A DNA stretch of 64,000 nt from Eledone cirrhosa (taxonomy: Eukaryota). Numbering within the stretch: position 1 is the stretch's first letter; each line of letters begins with the position of its first letter. This document shows positions 3,020-42,710 of the stretch, piece after piece. The notes beneath the pieces are model-generated. The model had not been told where the DNA came from. It searched no databases and saw only the letters and a program-made list of their open reading frames with translations. The translations under genes were made by a program, and so were the position numbers. Location: assembly GCA_964016885.1 (NCBI GenBank), contig OZ024758.1, positions 7,316,001 through 7,380,000 of the forward strand, given 5' to 3'.

Positions 3020-3870
3020 ATCTCAGTCATGATTAGTGTGAAGAAGACCGAGGTGACAGGGCAAGGAAAAAACTCAGCTCTAGTCATACATCTGAATGGA
3101 AATGCTCTGAAGACAGAAGATAAATTAGTTTTACTTGAGATTCGCTATATCTAGCATGGTATCTCTTGATGAGGAATTGAACAGAAGAATTGGTAAAGTT
3201 ACAGCAGCCTTTAAAATCTCAGTAAAATGGCATTGGAGAATGAGAAGATGAAATCGATAACTAAAATTCTGATCTAGCAGATATGCATCATTTCAACTTT
3301 TCTCTATGGGAGTAAGGCTTGGACAACGTACGGAGGTCAATAAAGAAGATTAAACAGCTTTTCACATGTGCTGTGTGAAGATCTTCAATATCAAATGGCA
3401 AGAGAGCGTCCCTGATATTGAAGTACTCCGAAAAGTAGATGTTTCATCACTCTACATTATTCTCTGATCTAGACGACTGAGATGCCTTAGTCATGTCTCA
3501 TAAATAGATGAATCTAGAATATCCAAGCAAGTGTTGTATGGATAAATAACAGATAGAAAATGGAACTTAGAACATCCTAAACTGGGTTTCAAGCAACCAA
3601 TGTAAAACTACCTTGAAAGAGTTCTGTATTGAGGAAGTGAAATGAGAAAGGTCAGCAAGGGGCCGTGGAAATTGTCAGGGGTAGATAGAGGAGCCAGAGG
3701 ATTTGAAAATTTGCACATCCAACATGCCGTTGATATAAGACAAAGATCTCGGTAGACATTATTGGCTCAACATTGCTCCATTGTGGCTGTTGTGAAAAGC
3801 CATGTCGGGCACACACAGGACTAGTCAGTCAAGAAAGACGCTGTTTAGAAAGAAATCAGTGGTGATTAAT
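3020..3870 (+). mobile_element. Decayed RTE-clade LINE, 3' portion
   Basis: Manual translation across frameshifts gives ISVKKTEV, LDEELNRRIGKVTAAF, ISTFLYGSKAWTTY, IFNIKWQESVPDIEVL, ESRISKQVLYG and a terminal Cys-rich CEKPCRAHTGLVSQ. These are post-RT motifs typical of RTE elements. Confidence 0.85.
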
Positions 3871-6568: not shown

Positions 6569-6721
6569 AAAGAATTATTACAAGTGAGTTTTACCGTTAC
6601 TGTGTAGAGAACAATATCTACAGGTTTCTCTTTGTGTAATATACTTCGTTGAGCTAATACTATTATTATTATTACAGTGAACTGCGGAATACTCTTAATT
6701 CCGATCTTTGTGTGTATATAT

Positions 6722-6870
6722 AACGAAGGAAATGTGGTAAGGAACCAGGTAGACCATAACGCATCAAAGTACTCAATAATTAGGGTAGTAGAGTGGGTAA
6801 TAGGAACGAGTAGGATCCCGGAATTAGCCGTCAAAACGGCTTGAGCTCAGCCGTCGGGGTCCAACTCGTT

Positions 6871-6875
<5 letters not shown>
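6722..6875 (+). mobile_element. TA-embedded repeat: ~100-bp arm plus the 3' half of a hammerhead-like motif
   Basis: Arm aacgaaggaaatgtggtaagg...gtgggtaatagg is shared with 15220, 24983 and (reverse) 37433-37532. A 20-bp stem 6800-6819/6856-6875 encloses aaacggc-ttgagctca-gccGTC. Confidence 0.7.
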
Positions 6876-6913
<38 letters not shown>

Positions 6914-7004
6914 GATCGACTTTCGTCAAATTGAAAACAATGTTTCCATTGGTCCTTCCATTGTTAATACTATCTATCGGTCGGAACTTCAGGTAGAAGG
7001 TACA

Positions 7005-7116
7005 ACGTGAAATAAAGTGTCTTGCTCAAGGACGTAAAGCATCGCCCGGTCCAGGAATCGAACTCACAACCTCACGATTGCGAATCCAATTCTCTAATCA
7101 CTCAGCCGCGCGCTTT
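7005..7116 (-). mobile_element. tRNA-derived SINE head of a second family
   Basis: Minus strand reads gcgcggctgagtgattagag (A box) ... gagttcgattcc (B box) ... tccttgagcaagacactt. Confidence 0.75.
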
Positions 7117-15219: not shown

Positions 15220-15221
<2 letters not shown>

Positions 15222-15300
15222 CGAAGGAATTGTGGTAAGGAACCGGATGGACCATAACGCACCAAAGTACTCAATACTTAGGGTAGTAGAGTGGGTAATA
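15220..15300 (+). mobile_element. Arm-only copy of the TA-embedded repeat seen at 6722
   Basis: aacgaaggaattgtggtaaggaacc...gggtagtagagtgggtaata directly after (TA)n. Confidence 0.8.
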
Positions 15301-21915: not shown

Positions 21916-22525
21916 TGTCAGGTCACCAGTTGGTGCTACTGGTAACATGTATCCCAGTACAACCTGTCCCATGGTCGGGTCGTTGGCGACTAAACTGGCA
22001 ACCCCACCAAGGTTTCTTGGTGAGGAGGGTGACTTTGGACATCCTGCAGGACTAAAAACAAAACCTGTCAAAGGGCAAAGGAGCTCTTAAGAGACAATGG
22101 GCATCCAAAATCACCGGGAGAGATGACCCCTTAGCCTTTGTCAAGGCAGAATTCTAGGAGAAGGAAAACTCTGATATAACACCTGCAACCCTGATGGTAT
22201 CCAATGATGTTGACTTGTTCTTCTTTTTGGTAAATATCATCTTGGTTAAGAGAGTGGGACTGGCTTTGTGCAGTGCCTTTGCTCACTATAAAAGCTTCAC
22301 GGCACAGGCATTGCTTTATATCTGGAGATCTCTCTGCACTTGTCGTCACATGGTACCATGGGCCCAGCACTATGTGTCAATAATTGTCACAAGTGTAGTG
22401 TTTGTACCAGAGTTTTCAAGTCGCTGGCTGGACTAAAAAGTCACACTCGTTCAGCGCATCGGTAGGGGTTCTCCTACATGGATATAAAGTAGTGGCCGTA
22501 CTCGAAAACGAGTTGGCAGCCACCA
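21916..22525 (+). mobile_element. ~610-bp non-autonomous RTE-derived retroelement, full copy
   Basis: Near-identical copies elsewhere in the window. The 3' end encodes [25 protein letters not shown] (C2H2 finger, as at RTE ORF ends), then stem-loop actcg-aaaa-cgagt and a (TATG/TA)n tail. Confidence 0.88.
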
Positions 22526-22529
22526 TATG

Positions 22530-22561
<32 letters not shown>

Positions 22562-24940: not shown

Positions 24941-24982
<42 letters not shown>

Positions 24983-24985
<3 letters not shown>

Positions 24986-25083
24986 GAAGGAAATGTGGTA
25001 TGGAACCAGATAGACCATAACTAGTCCAGAATTAGCCGTCGAAACGGCTTGAGCTCTGCCGTCGGGGTCATACTTGTTCCTAT
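24983..25083 (+). mobile_element. Internally deleted copy of the TA-embedded arm + hammerhead-half repeat
   Basis: aatgaaggaaatgtggtatggaacc...gaattagccgtcGAAACggc-ttgagctct-gccGTCggggtc, flanked by (TA)n on both sides. Confidence 0.75.
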
Positions 25084-30485: not shown

Positions 30486-30515
<30 letters not shown>

Positions 30516-30517
<2 letters not shown>

Positions 30518-31124
30518 GTGGCTGCCAACTCGTTTTCGAGTATGGCCACTACCTTATATCCATGTAGGAGAACCCCTACCGATGCGCTGAACGAGTGTGA
30601 CTTTTTAGTCCAGCCAGCGACTTGAAAACTCTGGTACAAACACTATTGACACAGTGCTGGGCCCATGGTACCATGTGACGACAAGTGCAGAGAGATCTCC
30701 AGATACAAAGATCTCCAGATACAAAGCAATGCCTGTGCCGAGAAGCTTTTATAGTGAGCAAAGGCACTGCACAAAGCCAGTCCCACTCTCTTAACCAAGA
30801 TGATATTTACCAAAAAGAAGAACAAGTCAACATCATTGGATACCATCAGGGTTGCAGGTGTTATATCAGAGTTTTCCTTCTCCTAGAATTCTGCCTTGAC
30901 AAAGGCTAAAGGGTCATCTCTCCCAGTGATTTTGGATGGCCATTGACTCTTAAGAGCTCCTTTGCCCTTTGACAGGTTTTGTTTTTAGTCCTGCAGGATG
31001 TCCAAAGTCACCCTCCTCACGAAGAAACCTTGGTGGGGTTGCTAGTTTAGTCGCCAACGACCCGACCATGAGACAGGTTGTACTGGGCTACATGTTACCA
31101 GTAGCACCAACTGGTGACCTGACA
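30516..31124 (-). mobile_element. RTE-derived 610-bp element, full copy with small indels
   Basis: Reverse complement of 21916-22525, with an internal duplication of agatctccagatacaa and a short deletion. Confidence 0.9.
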
Positions 31125-31160
31125 TATATATATATACATACATATATATATATATATATA

Positions 31161-31770
31161 TGGTGGCTGCCAACTCGTTTTCGAGTACGGCCACTACTTT
31201 ATATCCATGTAGGAGAACCCCTACCGATGCGCTGAACGAGTGTGACTTTTTAGTCCAGCCAGCGACTTGAAAACTCTGGTACAAACACTACACTTGTGAC
31301 AATTATTGACACATAGTGCTGGGCCCATGGTACCATGTGACGGCAAGTGCAGAGAGATCTCCAGATATAAAGCAATGCCTGTGCCGTGAAGCTTTTATAG
31401 TGAGCAAAGGCACTGCACAAAGCCAGTCCCACTCTCTTAACCAAGATGATATTTACCAAAAAGAAGAACAAGTCAACATCATTGGATACCATCAGGGTTG
31501 CAGGTGTTATATCAGAGTTTTCCTTCTCCTAGAATTCTGCCTTGACAAAGGCTAAGGGGTCATCTCTCCCAGTGATTTTGGATGGCCATTGACTCTTAAG
31601 AGCTCCTTTGCCCTTTGACAGGTTTTGTTTTTAGTCCTGCAGGATGTCCAAAGTCACCCTCCTCACCAAGAAACCTTGGTGGGGTTGCCAGTTTAGTCGC
31701 CAACGACCCGACCATGAAACAGGTTGTACTGGGATACATGTTACCAGTAGCACCAAGTGGTGACCTGACA
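31161..31770 (-). mobile_element. RTE-derived 610-bp element, full copy, tandem with the preceding one
   Basis: Reverse complement of 21916-22525, separated from the previous copy by ~36 bp of TA/TACA repeat. Confidence 0.9.
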
Positions 31771-33724
31771 TAAATATACATACATATATACATACATACA
31801 TACATATATATATATATACATGATGGCTGCCCCCTCGTTATCGAGGATGGCCATTGCACGTTATATACGCACATACATTTACACTCACACACACAAATTT
31901 ACACAGAGATACATACATTCACGCACGCACTCACATTTGTACACACACACACACATTTCCACACACAGATACCGAATATACACACACACACAGATACGTA
32001 CATACACATATACGTACATACACACAGACATATTTGTACACACACACACAGATACGTACATACACGCACACATAAATACGCTCATACACTCACACACATA
32101 CATACGTACACACACTCACACATACATACGTACACACACTCACACACATACATACGTACACACACTCACACACATACATACACACACATAATTATATACA
32201 CACACACAGATACGTACATACATAGATACGTACATACACGCACACATAAATACGCACACACACATATACACACACACGTACGTACATACACTAACTCATA
32301 TTTACAAACACAGGTACACGAATTAAAAAACATTCTATGTATAATTATGATGAATACTTATATCAACTTCCTGGAATAGCTCAGAGGAAAGTGTCGGTAA
32401 TGTTCTTTTTCTTTGCTCGTAGGTGCAGCACTGAAGAAGACAATACTTACAGACTATCGTCTGCAACAACATAGGTTGGTTGGCAGTTAACATAAGACAG
32501 AAATTGTTTGTTTTCTAGAAAGATCGTCTGGAGTATAGATACAAGCTTCGAACAGAGGATCGTCACACGTAGCGTTCGTTTGACAATACTGCGACAACAT
32601 GGCGCGCTGTGGTGGATTCGAAACGTAATGTCGTCTGCTGAATCTTTTGCAAATCTCTAGAACAAAGAGAGAAAGAGAGAGAGAGAACGATGTTAGAAAT
32701 GTAGGAATATATAGAAATATAGAAATGTAGAAATATAGAAATGTTTATTCTGGTGACAAAACAAATGGATGTGTGTGTGGAGAGAGAGAGAGGGAGAGAG
32801 AGAGGGGGAGAGAGGGGGAGAGAGATAACGACAGAGAAAGAGAAGGAGGGAGAGAGAGGAGAGAGAAAGAGAGTGAGAGAGAGAAGAAATGATTGAATGA
32901 TAATGAGAGACAAGAGAGTTATAGATATTGGGTGTGAATGAGAAAGGAGAGGAAGAAAAGGAAAAATGTGATAGAAAGAGAGAGGGGGGAGCGAGCTAGC
33001 GAGAGAGGGGGGGGGGGAGAGGGAGAGAGTGTGGTAATGAGAAACAAGAGAGTTATAAACATATAAACATCGGGTGTGAATGAGAAAGGAAAGGAAGAAA
33101 AACAAAAATGCGAGAGAAAGAATAAGAAGAGCCAAAGGAAAATATTGAAAAGAGATTATTTAAAAATAAACTAATAAGAAAATGTGGTAATAGAAAAAGT
33201 TGGGAAGAGATATTAAAGGAGTTTGTAGAATATTTAGATTATTTTGGTGGGTTTTTGTCTCTTTCAAGAGGGTAGTAATTCAGAAATGTCACTTTGACAG
33301 ATAAACATTTGTGATAAAGTGTGCAATGAGCCAGCCAAATGTATTGAGCATGCGTACTATTGCTCACCATTGAGACGAGTTAAGAAAATAATATTGAGTA
33401 AGAAAGTGTAGTGAGCGTCATACGTAGGCAGTATTAGGCAAATAACGATATTCGGAATAGAATAGAAATGGTGAAAAGACCCCCCCCCCCCCAAAAAAAA
33501 AGCGAGAAGATTTGGGGAGATAAAAGCAGTCAGAAAACGCTAAAAAACAAATATAGAAAGACATACACCACCACACCAATACAGAAGGGAGACGGTATGA
33601 CAATGAAGTATGCATTAAAGCAAGCAAACAGAATGGAGAGAGAAATGTGGCATCGAGCAAGGAAATTAGAGGAGAGCTCTAGAAAGAGATAGAAACCGAG
33701 GAAGAGCCTAGATAGAGAGGGGTA

Positions 33725-36014: not shown

Positions 36015-37370
36015 CAACATATAATATTAACAATGCAAGTTATAAAATACATAATACAAAACAAATCTTAATCTTTATGTTACCTATGTTACAATAATGT
36101 CTTATCGTGGAAATGAGATCGAAGAATGTGTACTTGAAGCTGAGAGGGGGAGGGGGGGGGTGAAGAGAGAGAGATATGGGAGAGAAGGATATATATATAT
36201 ATATATATATATATAATCCGTTTTTGAATTTGTTTTGTGAGATTTCTTATCTGAAAACGTGTGTTGAAACAGATTTTGTTATACTTTGGGAGGGTCATGC
36301 TGCCAATAAAGACATTATATAGCTTTAGTCCTATCCTTCCAAGTTTTATCTGACTTCACTTACGCCATCTTTGCACAGTCTTCTATATTTACTAATAAAA
36401 ATGAATAGTGGAAGATAATTGCTCTAAGGTGGGTTATTTTACCAATATTACGTTTAACACTCTCTAGACACCTAACTGTGAAATAATGTAACAATTCACC
36501 AAACAGTGATTTTTAAATCAATTTCGATAAACTTAATTCTGAAATTTGTGCAGCCGAAATCAATCATCTTAAAATTGACATAATCTTTTTGGTAATAATT
36601 AACTTTTTTTATTCGAAAAATTGGGTTTTAGGGAAAATTTTTATGTAATTTTAACAACTGCTGTTGTTTCATGGGAAGTTTTATAAACAGATTAATTGTA
36701 TTGAAAGCAAAGGACGAATATTTTATATATTTTTCAAATTCTATATTACTTTACAATGTATATAATATCATTGCATATTGTAATTAAACTGGTTATTTGA
36801 CCACTTATGGCGCTGTAATTAAGGTATTCTAATAAGATATAAATACATGAATATATAAATGTTATATTTTCATGCAATATAATTTTGTATCTGGAGTTTT
36901 CTATAGTTAATTATGATATATTTCATAACTATTTATTTACCTAGCATTCAAGTCTTCATAAATTCCTTGGGAAAAATACTGAATTAAATTTTCATACATT
37001 TTGTGAGAATTGATTAAAACGAAAAATACTGAACAAAAAAAACCCTGTAATGATAAAGAAAATGATATATAATATTATAATATCATATATCATTTTTTTA
37101 AATCAATATGATCGCCTTTGGATAACATACTAAAAAAGAAAAAAGAAAAAAAAATAGAAAATTCCGAACCGTTTTGACTTAAGAAATTAAACTTGTTCAA
37201 GGAATTATAAATTTTAAGTGGTACCAAGGATAAGGTAATATCTAATTGAATATAGAACTCACGAATAGTTGAAAGTGGTATATCGAATAATTTACACTTG
37301 TATATCATGTATGTAGAATTATATGGTTCAATGTGAAGGCGCGGGGCTTAGTAGTTAAGGTGCTCGGTTT

Positions 37371-37529
37371 ACGACAGCTGGATCCGAACCCTCTTCGGAT
37401 CTAGCTGCCGAAACGGTGGGAGCTCTGCTGTCGGGGTCCTGACGCTTTTCCTATTACCCACTCTACTACTCTAAGTATTGAGTACTCTGATGCGTCATGG
37501 TCCACCTGATATCTTACCACACCTCCTTC

Positions 37530-37532
<3 letters not shown>
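37371..37532 (+). mobile_element. Hammerhead 3' two-thirds followed by the inverted arm of the TA-embedded repeat
   Basis: ACGA, 14-bp stem II cagctggatccgaa/ttcggatctagctg, GAAAC, stem III, GTC-ggggtcc, then the reverse complement of the 6722-6819 arm ending in (TA)n. Confidence 0.75.
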
Positions 37533-37567
<35 letters not shown>

Positions 37568-37570
<3 letters not shown>

Positions 37571-38234
37571 TGGCTGCCAACTCGTTTTCGAGTACGGCCA
37601 CTACTTTATATCCATGTAGGAGAACCCCTACCGATGCGCTAAACAAGTGTGACTTTTTAGTCCAGCCATCGACTTGAAAACTCTGGTACAAACACTACAC
37701 TTGTGACAATTATTGACACATAGTGCTGGGCCCATGGTACCATGTGACGACAAGTGCAGAGAGATCTCCAGATATAAAGCAATGCCTGTGCCGTGAAGCT
37801 TTTATAGTGAGTAAAGGCACTGCACAAAGCCAGTCCCACTCTCTTAACCAAGATGATATTTACCAAAAAGAAGAACAAGTCAACATCATTGGATACCATC
37901 AGGGTTGCAGGTGTTATATCAGAGTTTTCCTTCTCTTAGAATTCTGCCTTGACAAAGGCTAAGGGGTCATCTCTCCCGGTGATTTTGGATGGCCATTGAC
38001 TCTTAAGAGCTCCTTTGCCCTTTGACAGGTTTTGTTTTTAGTCCTGCAGGATGTCCAAAGTCACCCTCCTCACCAAGAAACCTTGGTGGGGTTGCCAGTT
38101 TAGTCGCCAACGACCCGACCATGAGACAGGTTGTACTGGGATACATGTTACCAGTAGCACCAACTGGTGACCTGACATAATATGGTGGCTGCCAACTCGT
38201 TTTCGAGTACGGCCACTACTTTATATCCATGTAG
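37568..38234 (-). mobile_element. RTE-derived 610-bp element, full copy (37568-38177) plus an extra 3'-end fragment (38183-38234)
   Basis: Reverse complement of 21916-22525; tggtggctgccaactcg...gtagg is repeated immediately beyond it. Confidence 0.9.
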
Positions 38235-38719
38235 GTCACTACTTTATATCCTTGTGTGTATATATATATATACACACAAGGAAAAGGCTTGCTTAACACA
38301 CAAGCCTAAACCTCTTGGTACCATAACCGCTCGTGTGTGTGTATCGAATTATGCCGCTGTTTTCTCCCCCCCCCCTCCATCCCCTCTCTCTCTCCTCTCT
38401 CCCTATTACTTTCCTCTCCCATTTCGCTAATTCTGTTCTTTTTTTTAACTATGAAAGTTATTTTAATTACGATCGAATCAAAATATACTTTAGATCCAAT
38501 TTCTTTTTCACCCTCTTACTTTCTTTCTAAACTTTTCTCTTTTTTCTCATTTCCCTTTTCTCTATTTTAGGGTTTCCCACCCTCAACGATTATATTTTTT
38601 ATGTTTTATGTCATCTTGTGAGATATGATTTTTGGAAGCAACTATAACAATTTTGTTGAATGTGTTTTTTAATAAAGAAATTTCAGATATTATCTATTGA
38701 TCAATTTAAAAGAGAGACG

Positions 38720-40062: not shown

Positions 40063-41019
40063 AATAATAAGCGTTGCTCAGATCAGTTTCACTATGATAT
40101 CAAATTTTTGAGCAGATCCTCTATTCGGGTAACTAGATAACTGTCGAGCACTGTAAAACAATCAATAATACTCTCGAGAGAAATCTTTCACAAACATTTT
40201 CCAACCGGAATTGCCAAGAGCGGCCAAAAACTACTCCGACTCTTTAATGTTTTTTTTAAATTTTTGAATCTATAAATGATTTATCTTTCGTGTTTATTTG
40301 CAAAGTTGGGTTGCAACAAATTTGCAGTTTTGATTGAAATTTAAAAATAAATTTGCATGTTCCCCAACCACCTCTAGTCAACATATTATAAATGGTTCTA
40401 ATCGATGATAAGTAATTCAATTTCGTTTTTGCAATTCCTTAAGCCCCTAAGCGGTATTCCAAGAATCACATCAGCACAAAATTGTAGAAAAACAGAAAGT
40501 TCTAGATTTTTATATAATCTATTTTTCGTAGATATTTTAGTAATTCAAATCCATTAACTCATGCTATTAGTTCGAAATTAGCCATGGAAACAGCACCTGT
40601 TTTTAGATATATTTTAGATATATTTCCAGGTTAAGTTAATTAGTTATTTTTGAACAATTGAAATTTTCTGATAAGCTTGAATCTTTGAGAATGTCGATTA
40701 CTATTATCATTAATTTTCGCCGTTATCATAGAAAGGAGGTATACAAATCTCAGAGGTCATGCTTATCGTTGGTACAGAGTTAGTTTTAGATTGTATAGTC
40801 GAATATACCTTCGACTGTTGTACAGAAGATGAGTGGCCACCCGACTGACAGACAATAGAGGAGAAACTTACTCTTTATACTTTCGACAAACAGCAGTCTT
40901 ACCTGGACGGGGTGGGAGCGTGATAGCGGATCTTTCAGCTGAGCTGCTTCAGAAAAAAAGTTTGTCTCTGAATCTTAGTATTTACTACGACCAATTGTCC
41001 AAATGTAGTACTTAACATC

Positions 41020-41458: not shown

Positions 41459-41820
41459 AAAAACTCTGATATAACACCTGCAACCCTGATGGTATCCAAT
41501 GATGTTGACTTGTTCTTCTTTTTGGTAAATATCCTCTTGGTTAAGAGAGTGGGACTGGCTTTGTGCAGTGCTTTTGCTCACTATAAAAGCTTCACGGCAC
41601 AGGCATTGCTTTATATCTGGAGATCTCTCTGCACTTGTCGTCACATGGTACCATGGGCCCAGCACTATGTGTCAATAATTGTCACAAGTGTAGTGTTTGT
41701 GCCAGAGTTTTCAAGTCGCTGGCTGGACTAAAAAGTCACACTCGTTCAGAGCATCGGTAGGAGTTCTCCTACATGGATATAAGGTAGTGGCCGTACTCGA
41801 AAACGAGTTGGCAGCCACCA
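41459..41820 (+). mobile_element. 5'-truncated copy of the RTE-derived 610-bp element
   Basis: Matches ~22165-22525 and is followed by a (TATG)n tail. Confidence 0.9.
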
Positions 41821-42173
41821 TGTATATATATGTATGTATGAATATACATATATAAATATATATATATAAATATGTATGTATGCATGTATGTATGAATGTA
41901 TGTATGTACGTATTTATGTACGTATTTATGTACGTATGTATTTATGTATGTACGTACATAAGTATGTATGTTTGTATGTATATATGGATATATGTATATA
42001 TGTATATATGTATGTATGCATGTATGTAGCAATGTATGTATGCCTGCATGTGTGTATGTACGTACGTATGAATGTATGTACGTACGTATGTATGTACATA
42101 CGTATGAATGTATGTATTAAACTATGTATATATATCAAGTAAGAATATTTTCGATACAGCGAGTGGGTTTGAA

Positions 42174-42581: not shown

Positions 42582-42688
42582 AGTCGCTGGCTGGACTAAA
42601 AAGTCACACTCGTTCAGCCCATCGGTAGGGGTTCTCCTACATGGATATAAAGTAGTGGCCGTACTCGAAAACGAGTTGGCAGCCACCA
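42582..42688 (+). mobile_element. 3'-end fragment of the RTE-derived element inserted in (TATG)n
   Basis: Matches ~22418-22525, with (TATG)n on both sides. Confidence 0.9.
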
Positions 42689-42710
42689 TGTATGTATGTA
42701 TGTATGTATG

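What the first reader, a model, noticed from the sequence alone, without database searches (positions are those of the whole stretch)
37371..37532. Reconstructed fold-back element family with a hammerhead ribozyme at the hairpin apex, living in (TA)n tracts
Seen: four partial copies piece together. 6722-6875 is arm A + hammerhead 3' half + start of inverted A; 15220-15300 is arm A only; 24983-25083 is a deleted arm + GAAAC-stem III-GTC; 37371-37532 is ACGA + long stem II + GAAAC-stem III-GTC + the entire inverted arm. All abut TA repeats. Stem III differs in sequence between copies (acggc/gccgt vs acggtgg/ctgctgt) yet still pairs. Inference: the intact element is A-hammerhead-A', with hammerhead stem I extended into ~100-bp inverted arms. 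Known: type I hammerheads mark Penelope-like elements and retrozymes, normally in direct repeats; a MITE-like inverted-arm layout would be unusual. No copy here retains the full CUGANGA box.
Basis: partly seen in the sequence, partly recalled or inferred. Interest (0 to 1): 0.75.

Follow-up and report, generated by a model that had tools for sequence, protein, structure and literature searches.

The report
Cut-off Penelope retroelement ends, paired
These back-to-back repeats are the cut-off ends of a very abundant Penelope-type jumping gene whose long copies carry a predicted self-cutting RNA with a variant core; most short copies stop at the same spot, likely because the copying enzyme runs off the start of the element's RNA.

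Summary
The four pieces are real members of one high-copy family (38,344 exact matches to a 29-nt tail motif), but not a MITE-like A-hammerhead-A' element. They are 3' ends of a Hydra-type Penelope-like retrotransposon (uninterrupted 719-aa RT/GIY-YIG ORF), inserted in (TA)n as two 5'-truncated arms head-to-head, one with an 82-nt tail, one without. The complete type I hammerhead lies in long copies; its core is mostly UUGANAA (U3-A8; 4,800 matches), often CUGANAA (1,393), and canonical only in older sister lineages. All this is a known kind, and the scan found it before on other DNA (Hydra clade, U3-A8, paired ends, twin hairpins). Added here: 54 of 92 tail arms stop in a 15-nt zone; most arms end at or just inside the A of an invariant, initiator-like YAGTY in loop 2, in two lineages. 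I infer run-off at the RNA 5' end (strong-stop-like cDNA), about 45%; untested. The U3 core is not one clade.

The parts
37394..37532 (+). Tail-bearing arm of a lineage-B insertion: 3' strand of hammerhead stem II, GAAA box (37410-37413), stem III, predicted cleavage C (37432), 3' strand of stem I, short end site (37454) and tail (37455-37532)
   Evidence: aligns to element positions -38 to about +100 of locus L131; model R1 partial hit 37357-37440, 26 bits
37372..37389 (-). Stub of the inverted partner arm (element -39..-22); its outer part is missing
   Evidence: 24 of the 30 loci show the same junction with the two arms
37333..37374 (+). Flank resembling the head of a tRNA-like SINE family; supplies the 'ACGA' of the finding; not part of the element
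   Evidence: weak blastn matches (E 0.007-0.5) to the starts of 16 SINE-like copies in other loci; SINE label recalled
37533..37568 (.). (TA)n target tract at the tail end
6720..6820 (-). Tail-bearing arm of a lineage-A insertion; its 5' end lies at the predicted cleavage site (element 0/+1)
6818..6875 (+). Tail-less partner arm (element -37..+20): 3' half of the hammerhead, predicted cleavage C at 6855
   Evidence: R1 partial hit 35 bits
15218..15304 (-). Tail-only fragment (element +14..+102)
24980..25021 (-). Short tail fragment (element +60..+102)
25022..25083 (+). Tail-less arm (element -41..+20) that begins at the YAGTY motif (A at 25023); predicted cleavage C at 25063
   Evidence: R1 partial hit 43 bits

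Best explanation
The copies are 5'-truncated ends of a Hydra-type Penelope-like retrotransposon joined head-to-head in (TA)n, likely made by two reverse-transcription events on the same kind of RNA, which in most cases would run off the RNA's 5' end inside loop 2 of the predicted hammerhead. Shown: the parent element (repeat with hammerhead, 82-nt tail running on into the 5' leader, ATG, RT, GIY-YIG, long 3' UTR, repeat); two fixed outer ends (+20 and +102 from the cleavage site), one of each per insertion; a sharp 5' boundary at the A of an invariant YAGTY, 40 nt before the cleavage site and 45 nt after the catalytic box; a complete type I hammerhead fold in long copies with U3-A8, C3.A8 or C3-G8 cores. 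Inferred: the endonuclease cuts both strands of (TA)n, RT starts at +20 from one DNA end and at +102 from the other (by analogy with Poseidon of Anolis), and the two cDNAs are joined by microhomology or short insertions (about 75%). Inferred, weaker: YAGTY is the initiator of an internal promoter, so RT that primes in the 5' copy of the repeat reaches the cap after 60 or 142 nt, like retroviral strong-stop DNA, while priming in the 3' copy gives long insertions (about 45%). The short copies cannot self-cleave as monomers because they lack the first catalytic box.
For: Parent: RT-linker coding sequence directly upstream of the unit; 710-aa and uninterrupted 719-aa ORFs with RWR, DKT, CxCx5C, VIY..YIG, CNLC, CKH matching the Hydra description; partial tandems inverted repeat / direct repeat + tail / leader / ATG in L281 and L285. 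Paired ends: 12 of 12 long two-armed loci that I picked as diverging pairs have the tail on exactly one arm; partner ends at +20 in 53 of 64; 13,731 loci match an exact short fold-back pattern. Independent events: 34 distinct junction strings in 46 junctions; the two arms of one insertion are 96% alike (median) against 85% between insertions. Boundary: 54 of 92 tail arms stop at -34..-48, 6 pass beyond -300, 1 lies between; stop rate 0.14 per nt in the zone against 0.005 downstream and 0.0005 upstream; 78 of 92 arm ends in A/C junctions lie at +1..+7 of the motif, the longer arm at +1 or +2 in 24 of 46; in lineage B 48 of 48 arm ends lie at +1..+7, none beyond (biased sample). AGT is invariant in 46 of 46 complete hammerheads and YAGTY stands 18 nt before G12 in 9 of 9 lineage representatives. 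D. virilis Penelope has an internal TATA-less promoter (PMC2377424, passages). Hammerhead: 88.9% of cells paired, 62 double changes against 28 in shuffles, 3:8 pair UA 22 / CG 18 / other 6 (rows chosen by me, related sequences).
Against: No RNA evidence for a start site or for cleavage was obtained. 14 of 92 A/C arm ends extend 1-8 nt past the A; some are microhomology, a few look templated. The +28..+33 stretch (NGAGCT) fits a downstream promoter element poorly and is also loop 3 of the hammerhead. The invariant AGU could instead pair with an ACU found 3' of stem I in most lineages. The Inr consensus (TCAKTY) is recalled, from Drosophila. Pfam and PDB sequence searches gave no hit for the ORF; clade assignment rests on motifs, not on a tree. 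Folding z-scores of the complete hammerheads are modest (-0.7 to -2.6) and 3 of 8 minimum-energy folds are not the hammerhead fold. 1,393 copies carry a C3.A8 mismatch, so the ribozyme may be weak or dispensable. Arkhipova 2013 explains head-to-head palindromes by self-priming on an antisense template instead.
Confidence: 0.75

Rival explanations
1. Same element and paired ends, but the fixed 5' boundary comes from RNA structure or processing: RT stalls at the top of stem II or at a bound protein, or the RNA is cut in loop 2; YAGTY is conserved for a tertiary contact of the ribozyme.
For: The boundary lies at the junction of lower stem II and the upper hairpin; AGU could pair with ACU 3' of stem I in most lineages; some ends pass the A by 3-8 nt.
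Against: RT has already unwound the 3' strand of stem II when it stops; upper loop-2 sequence and fold differ between lineages A/C and B while the boundary stays at the same A; almost no stops occur in the next 300 nt (1 of 7).
Confidence: 0.35
2. The short fold-backs are a self-propagating non-autonomous family: having kept a wholly internal promoter and both start sites, they are transcribed and copied again in trans.
For: 6 of the 30 loci fetched (L048-L052, L059) are 147-nt copies with the same junction on five contigs; short forms dominate (85 of 92 tail arms end at or 3' of -48).
Against: 34 distinct junctions in 46; recurrent junctions sit on microhomologies; diagnostic variants of short copies also occur in long ORF-bearing copies such as L281, L282, L284.
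Confidence: 0.15
3. One reading: an intact MITE-like A-hammerhead-A' element whose stem I continues into two ~100-bp inverted arms.
For: Short copies are palindromic and fold as hairpins (z -3.5 to -5.6 for two of three tested copies).
Against: Both arms complete in 1 of 64, and that copy lacks the hammerhead; no CUGANGA next to stem II (one search hits were an unrelated LINE); arms range from about 20 nt to 3.5 kb and run into an RT ORF.
Confidence: 0.02

Closest known systems
Hydra clade of C-terminal EN+ Penelope-like elements, including Hydra-1_Obim (Craig et al. 2021, PMC8557442; abstract, passages, section 11 and supplement search hits seen)
   Same: Single ORF, RW(K/R), DKT, CxCx5C linker, CxxC and CxH in the endonuclease, (TA)n target, hammerhead near the 3' end; N-terminus visibly homologous to Hydra-1_Obim (by eye).
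   Different: A different family from Hydra-1_Obim, whose listed hammerhead is canonical with a 9-nt loop 2; here the unit is 3.1-3.5 kb, the core mostly U3-A8, stem II plus loop about 55 nt, and there are tens of thousands of short copies.
Inverted pLTR plus one-sided tail of EN+ PLE insertions (Arkhipova et al. 2013, PMC3846280, passages; Craig 2021 Fig. 2 legend)
   Same: Head-to-head inverted 5'-truncated copy, tail on one end only, partial tandems, microhomology joins, Inr-like motif noted in a pLTR.
   Different: Tail 82 nt instead of 30-40; a dominant fixed truncation point is not mentioned in the passages I saw.
Poseidon_Ac of Anolis in vitro (Frangieh et al. 2024, PMC11167929; parts 1-2 of 4 read)
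   Same: Two internal RT start sites whose spacing is the tail; AT-rich target cut on both strands; hammerhead not needed for insertion.
   Different: There the starts lie 111-118 nt into the ORF; here both ends lie in the 5' leader, upstream of the ATG, each a few nt before a bulged hairpin.
U3-A8 hammerheads of Schistosoma mansoni PLEs (Cervera and de la Pena 2014, PMC4209133; parts 1-2 of 4 read)
   Same: U3-A8 instead of C3-G8 (about 1,300 hits there), long helix II, G10.1-C11.1, palindromic loop 3, pairs of motifs on opposite strands 100-700 bp apart.
   Different: Here helix III is a full 5-bp stem, so a monomeric fold is possible; C3-G8, C3.A8 and U3-A8 coexist in one family group.
Metazoan non-LTR retrozymes (bioRxiv 10.64898/2026.07.22.740005; part 1 of 5 read)
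   Same: Non-coding type I hammerhead repeats derived from PLE ends.
   Different: Retrozymes are tandem repeats with a complete hammerhead per unit; these copies are inverted pairs without the first box.

Membership tests
Hydra-clade PLE | single ORF with RT and C-terminal GIY-YIG endonuclease | tested here: met
   719-aa uninterrupted ORF with QFDIESYY, YRDDG, FLDV and VIY..YIG motifs read by eye; no Pfam hit
Hydra-clade PLE | RWK, DKT, CxCX5C linker, CxxC and CxH in EN | tested here: met
   RWR (variant), DKT, CNCPDRSIC, CNLC, CKH
Hydra-clade PLE | insertion into (TA)n | tested here: met
   161 of 182 tail ends are followed by ATAT; 7 continue into the element's leader
Hydra-clade PLE | canonical hammerhead | tested here: not met
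   main lineages have U3-A8 or C3.A8; canonical core only in older sister lineages and 36 sporadic copies
Hydra-clade PLE | generally under 3 kb | tested here: inconclusive
   unit 3,118 nt in L281 and 3,523 nt in L285; the paper says 'generally'
Hydra-clade PLE | placement in the RT phylogeny | not tested
   reference proteins were seen only as cut text in a supplement
EN+ PLE insertion footprint | inverted 5'-truncated copy, tail at one end, partial tandems | tested here: met
Type I hammerhead ribozyme | three helices around the core boxes, 3:8 pair, NUH site | tested here: met
   long copies only; Rfam gathering scores not reached in 4 loci
Type I hammerhead ribozyme | self-cleavage | not testable with these tools
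   weak genomic hint only: 4 of 92 tail arms begin at 0..+2, expected 1.1, P 0.026, post hoc
MITE | terminal inverted repeats at both ends, fixed length, DNA-transposon parent | tested here: not met
   ends differ (+20 versus +102), junctions vary, parent encodes RT
Non-LTR retrozyme | tandem units each with a complete hammerhead | tested here: not met
   in the 92-arm sample 85 arms lack the first box; tandem arrays were not searched genome-wide

The most novel reading that the evidence does not exclude
The element's transcription start lies inside loop 2 of its own hammerhead, so the upstream repeat yields an RNA that cannot cleave itself; RT primed at two sites just downstream runs off the cap, and both strong-stop-like cDNAs are integrated head-to-head, which produced tens of thousands of ~200-bp palindromes. 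The same family records the catalytic 3:8 pair flipping from C-G to U-A on two or three separate branches, with a mismatched C.A lineage that still amplified.
Probability: 0.4. Interest if true: 0.62.

Novelty: new member of a known kind. Interest (0 to 1): 0.36.

Why it matters
The finding as written (a MITE-like ribozyme hairpin) does not stand, and the element class, the fold-back and the U3-A8 core are in print. What remains useful: how Penelope-like elements make their inverted insertions and what their hammerheads do are open questions (Craig 2021, Frangieh 2024). This family offers young uninterrupted ORFs, two fixed outer ends, one fixed inner boundary and three natural core states, so a 5' RACE, an RT run-off assay and a three-way cleavage assay would test the start site, the strong-stop idea and whether cleavage matters for amplification. 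It also warns that such palindromes will be filed as MITEs and their hammerheads missed by CUGANGA descriptors.

Tried and rejected
Rfam scan of the window: only simple-repeat miRNA matches among the 150 rows shown, no hammerhead; four loci with complete motifs reach no gathering score. Pattern CTGANGA directly before the inverted stem: 7 hits, all antisense of an unrelated LINE. Pfam and PDB sequence searches of the ORF: no hit. Sequencing runs: no RNA holder listed; I did not lay reads. ARAGORN: no tRNA in the window. Inverted-repeat scan of the window was swamped by simple repeats. Weak R1 hit at 40521-40609 is AT-rich sequence without the motif. A cap-templated extra G was looked for by eye (4 of 6 arms ending at +1): too few to use. 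Assembly artefact: not tested with reads; considered unlikely because junctions and arms differ between copies. Paper searches listed no paper holding both 'Penelope' and 'pLTR' with 'strong-stop' or 'twin priming'; the library lacks most subscription papers, and bioRxiv supplements were closed. PMC7151607 passages gave no rate for C3.A8; PMC13282606 passages mention Penelope-like elements but not Hydra or hammerheads.

Full report
Observation. Searches of the own genome (3.0 Gb) with two of them gave 2,705 and 4,606 first-look candidates, and a 29-nt degenerate motif of 'arm A' has 38,344 exact matches against 0 for the reversed control. The family is real. Three details do not hold. The left flank of the 37371 copy is not (TA)n but resembles the head of a SINE-like repeat, and 'ACGA' is its join with the inverted arm. 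The 'long stem II' is the fold-back junction. Stem III shows no double change in 46 complete motifs.

What the copies are. Aligned copies have one layout: (TA)n, a long arm, a variable junction, a shorter inverted arm, (AT)n. Reading the hammerhead strand as sense and numbering from the predicted cleavage C, one arm ends at +102 and the other at +20. In the first 92 tail-motif arms of contig C1 that I fetched (90 loci; 8 of the 100 listed places were not in this set), 64 had a real inverted partner; it ended at +20 in 53 and carried the tail in 1 (6 further partner calls were simple-repeat matches and were dropped; 22 arms had no partner within reach). In 12 long two-armed loci that I picked as diverging pairs, all 12 had the tail on one arm only, and the arms ran for up to 3.5 kb into coding sequence. 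A strict pattern for the short junction matches 13,731 loci.

The parent. Longer copies lead upstream through a 3' UTR into an RT/GIY-YIG ORF. L281 and L285 are partial tandems: inverted repeat, direct repeat with tail, about 90 nt more leader, ATG, ORF, 3' UTR, repeat; L281 holds an uninterrupted 719-aa ORF. So the tail is the beginning of the next unit's leader. The protein has the motifs given for the Hydra clade (RW-K/R, DKT, CxCX5C, CxxC, CxH; section 11 of PMC8557442) and differs from Hydra-1_Obim (supplement hits, compared by eye). Pfam and PDB gave no hit and I built no RT tree, so the label rests on motifs. The inverted truncated copy, the one-sided tail and the (TA)n target are described for these elements, and two RT start sites spaced by the tail were shown in vitro for Poseidon of Anolis.

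The hammerhead. The complete motif lies in long copies: 5-bp stem I, first box, G10.1-C11.1, a 6-9-bp stem II with a loop region of about 33 nt, GAAA, 5-bp stem III with a palindromic loop, GUC. With the same downstream anchor, UUGANAA has 4,800 matches, CUGANAA 1,393, and CUGANGA 109 (wider gap), most of the last being chance flanks; G8 in the young A/C lineages has 36 matches. Older sister lineages with the same tail carry canonical CUGAUGA or CUGAGGA. On 46 motifs that I chose across lineages, 88.9% of cells pair and 62 cells change on both sides against 28 in shuffles; 6 of 10 stem II pairs have double changes; the 3:8 pair is UA in 22, CG in 18 and mismatched in 6 (relatedness inflates these counts, and one old lineage is misaligned by a column). 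In a tree with positions 3, 7 and 8 masked, U3 rows are rejected as one clade (p-AU 6e-43), also within A/C (9e-53); the groups were named after I had seen a first tree, and the root is not resolved. U3-A8 in a PLE hammerhead is published for Schistosoma. Single changes of the 3:8 pair abolished cleavage in the Anolis element, and cleavage was not needed for insertion, which fits a mismatched lineage that still amplified. Cleavage here is untested; minimum-energy folds give the hammerhead in 5 of 8 copies.

The fixed boundary. 54 of 92 tail arms stop between -34 and -48, 31 are shorter, 1 is at -75 (probably the partner's stem) and 6 pass -300. Among 46 junctions, 78 of 92 arm ends lie at +1..+7 counted from the A of a YAGTY motif in loop 2, and the longer arm ends at +1 or +2 in 24. 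In lineage B, with a different loop, 48 of 48 ends lie at +1..+7 (sample selected by likeness to the window copy). AGT is invariant in 46 of 46 motifs and in fixed register in 9 of 9 representatives. YAGTY resembles the Drosophila initiator (recalled), and D. virilis Penelope has an internal promoter. I therefore infer that transcription starts at this A and that RT primed at +20 and +102 in the 5' copy of the repeat runs off the RNA end; the two cDNAs then join. That would explain why most copies, including those in this window, lack the first catalytic box. Against it: 14 of 92 ends pass the A by 1-8 nt, the downstream promoter match is poor, the AGU may be a tertiary contact, and no RNA data were available. 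A structural stall remains nearly as likely. 34 distinct junctions in 46 and higher identity within than between insertions favour independent events from one template over a self-copying short family.

Earlier notes of this scan (AI notes, read after my own reading was fixed) reach the same class, paired ends and U3-A8 core on other pieces of this genome; a word search for U3-A8 with truncation and initiator found none. Their twin-hairpin lead holds in L281: a bulged hairpin begins 5 nt after the +20 end and 3 nt after the +102 end. The host is called an octopus in those notes; I did not test this.

Verdict. Real repeat, wrong architecture, known kind: a new family of Hydra-type Penelope-like elements. 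Interest 0.36, carried by the fixed inner boundary and the three natural core states, both testable.

Noticed in passing
L281 3015-3036 and 3093-3114 (+); window 37460-37481 (+): A small bulged hairpin begins a few nt after each of the two outer ends (lead from earlier notes; folded for L281; the window stretch is the matching sequence, not folded).
   Followed up: partly
L281 about 3047-3094 (+): Possible short intron in the 5' leader: a GT donor-like site in the tail (GTGAGT in the old lineage) and a pyrimidine tract with AG just after the +102 end; D. virilis Penelope has a leader intron.
   Followed up: no
window 6820; L165, L168, L172, L230: Some arms begin at the predicted cleavage site (0..+2): 4 of 92, expected 1.1; could be copies of the 3' cleavage product.
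   Followed up: partly
window 37569-37700, 31160-31290, 22473-22530, 41768-41830, 30515-30568, 42636-42690, 38180-38235, 31787-31866: A second repeat family, 92-100% alike in most copies, also starts at (TA)n and abuts the 37371 copy; ends here approximate.
   Followed up: no
L156 and L157: A different non-LTR retrotransposon (RVT_1 and zf-RVT hits) lies upstream of the element's 3' repeat in two similar loci 1.2 Mb apart, where the tail continues into the leader.
   Followed up: no
L039 276 and 450 (+): An unrelated canonical hammerhead-like motif with short stem II, twice, 174 nt apart.
   Followed up: no
L061-L067: Antisense of a LINE with long coding stretches matched the CTGANGA pattern by chance.
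   Followed up: partly
window about 6990-7115 (-): SINE-like repeat with a tRNA-like head next to the 6722 copy (label recalled).
   Followed up: no
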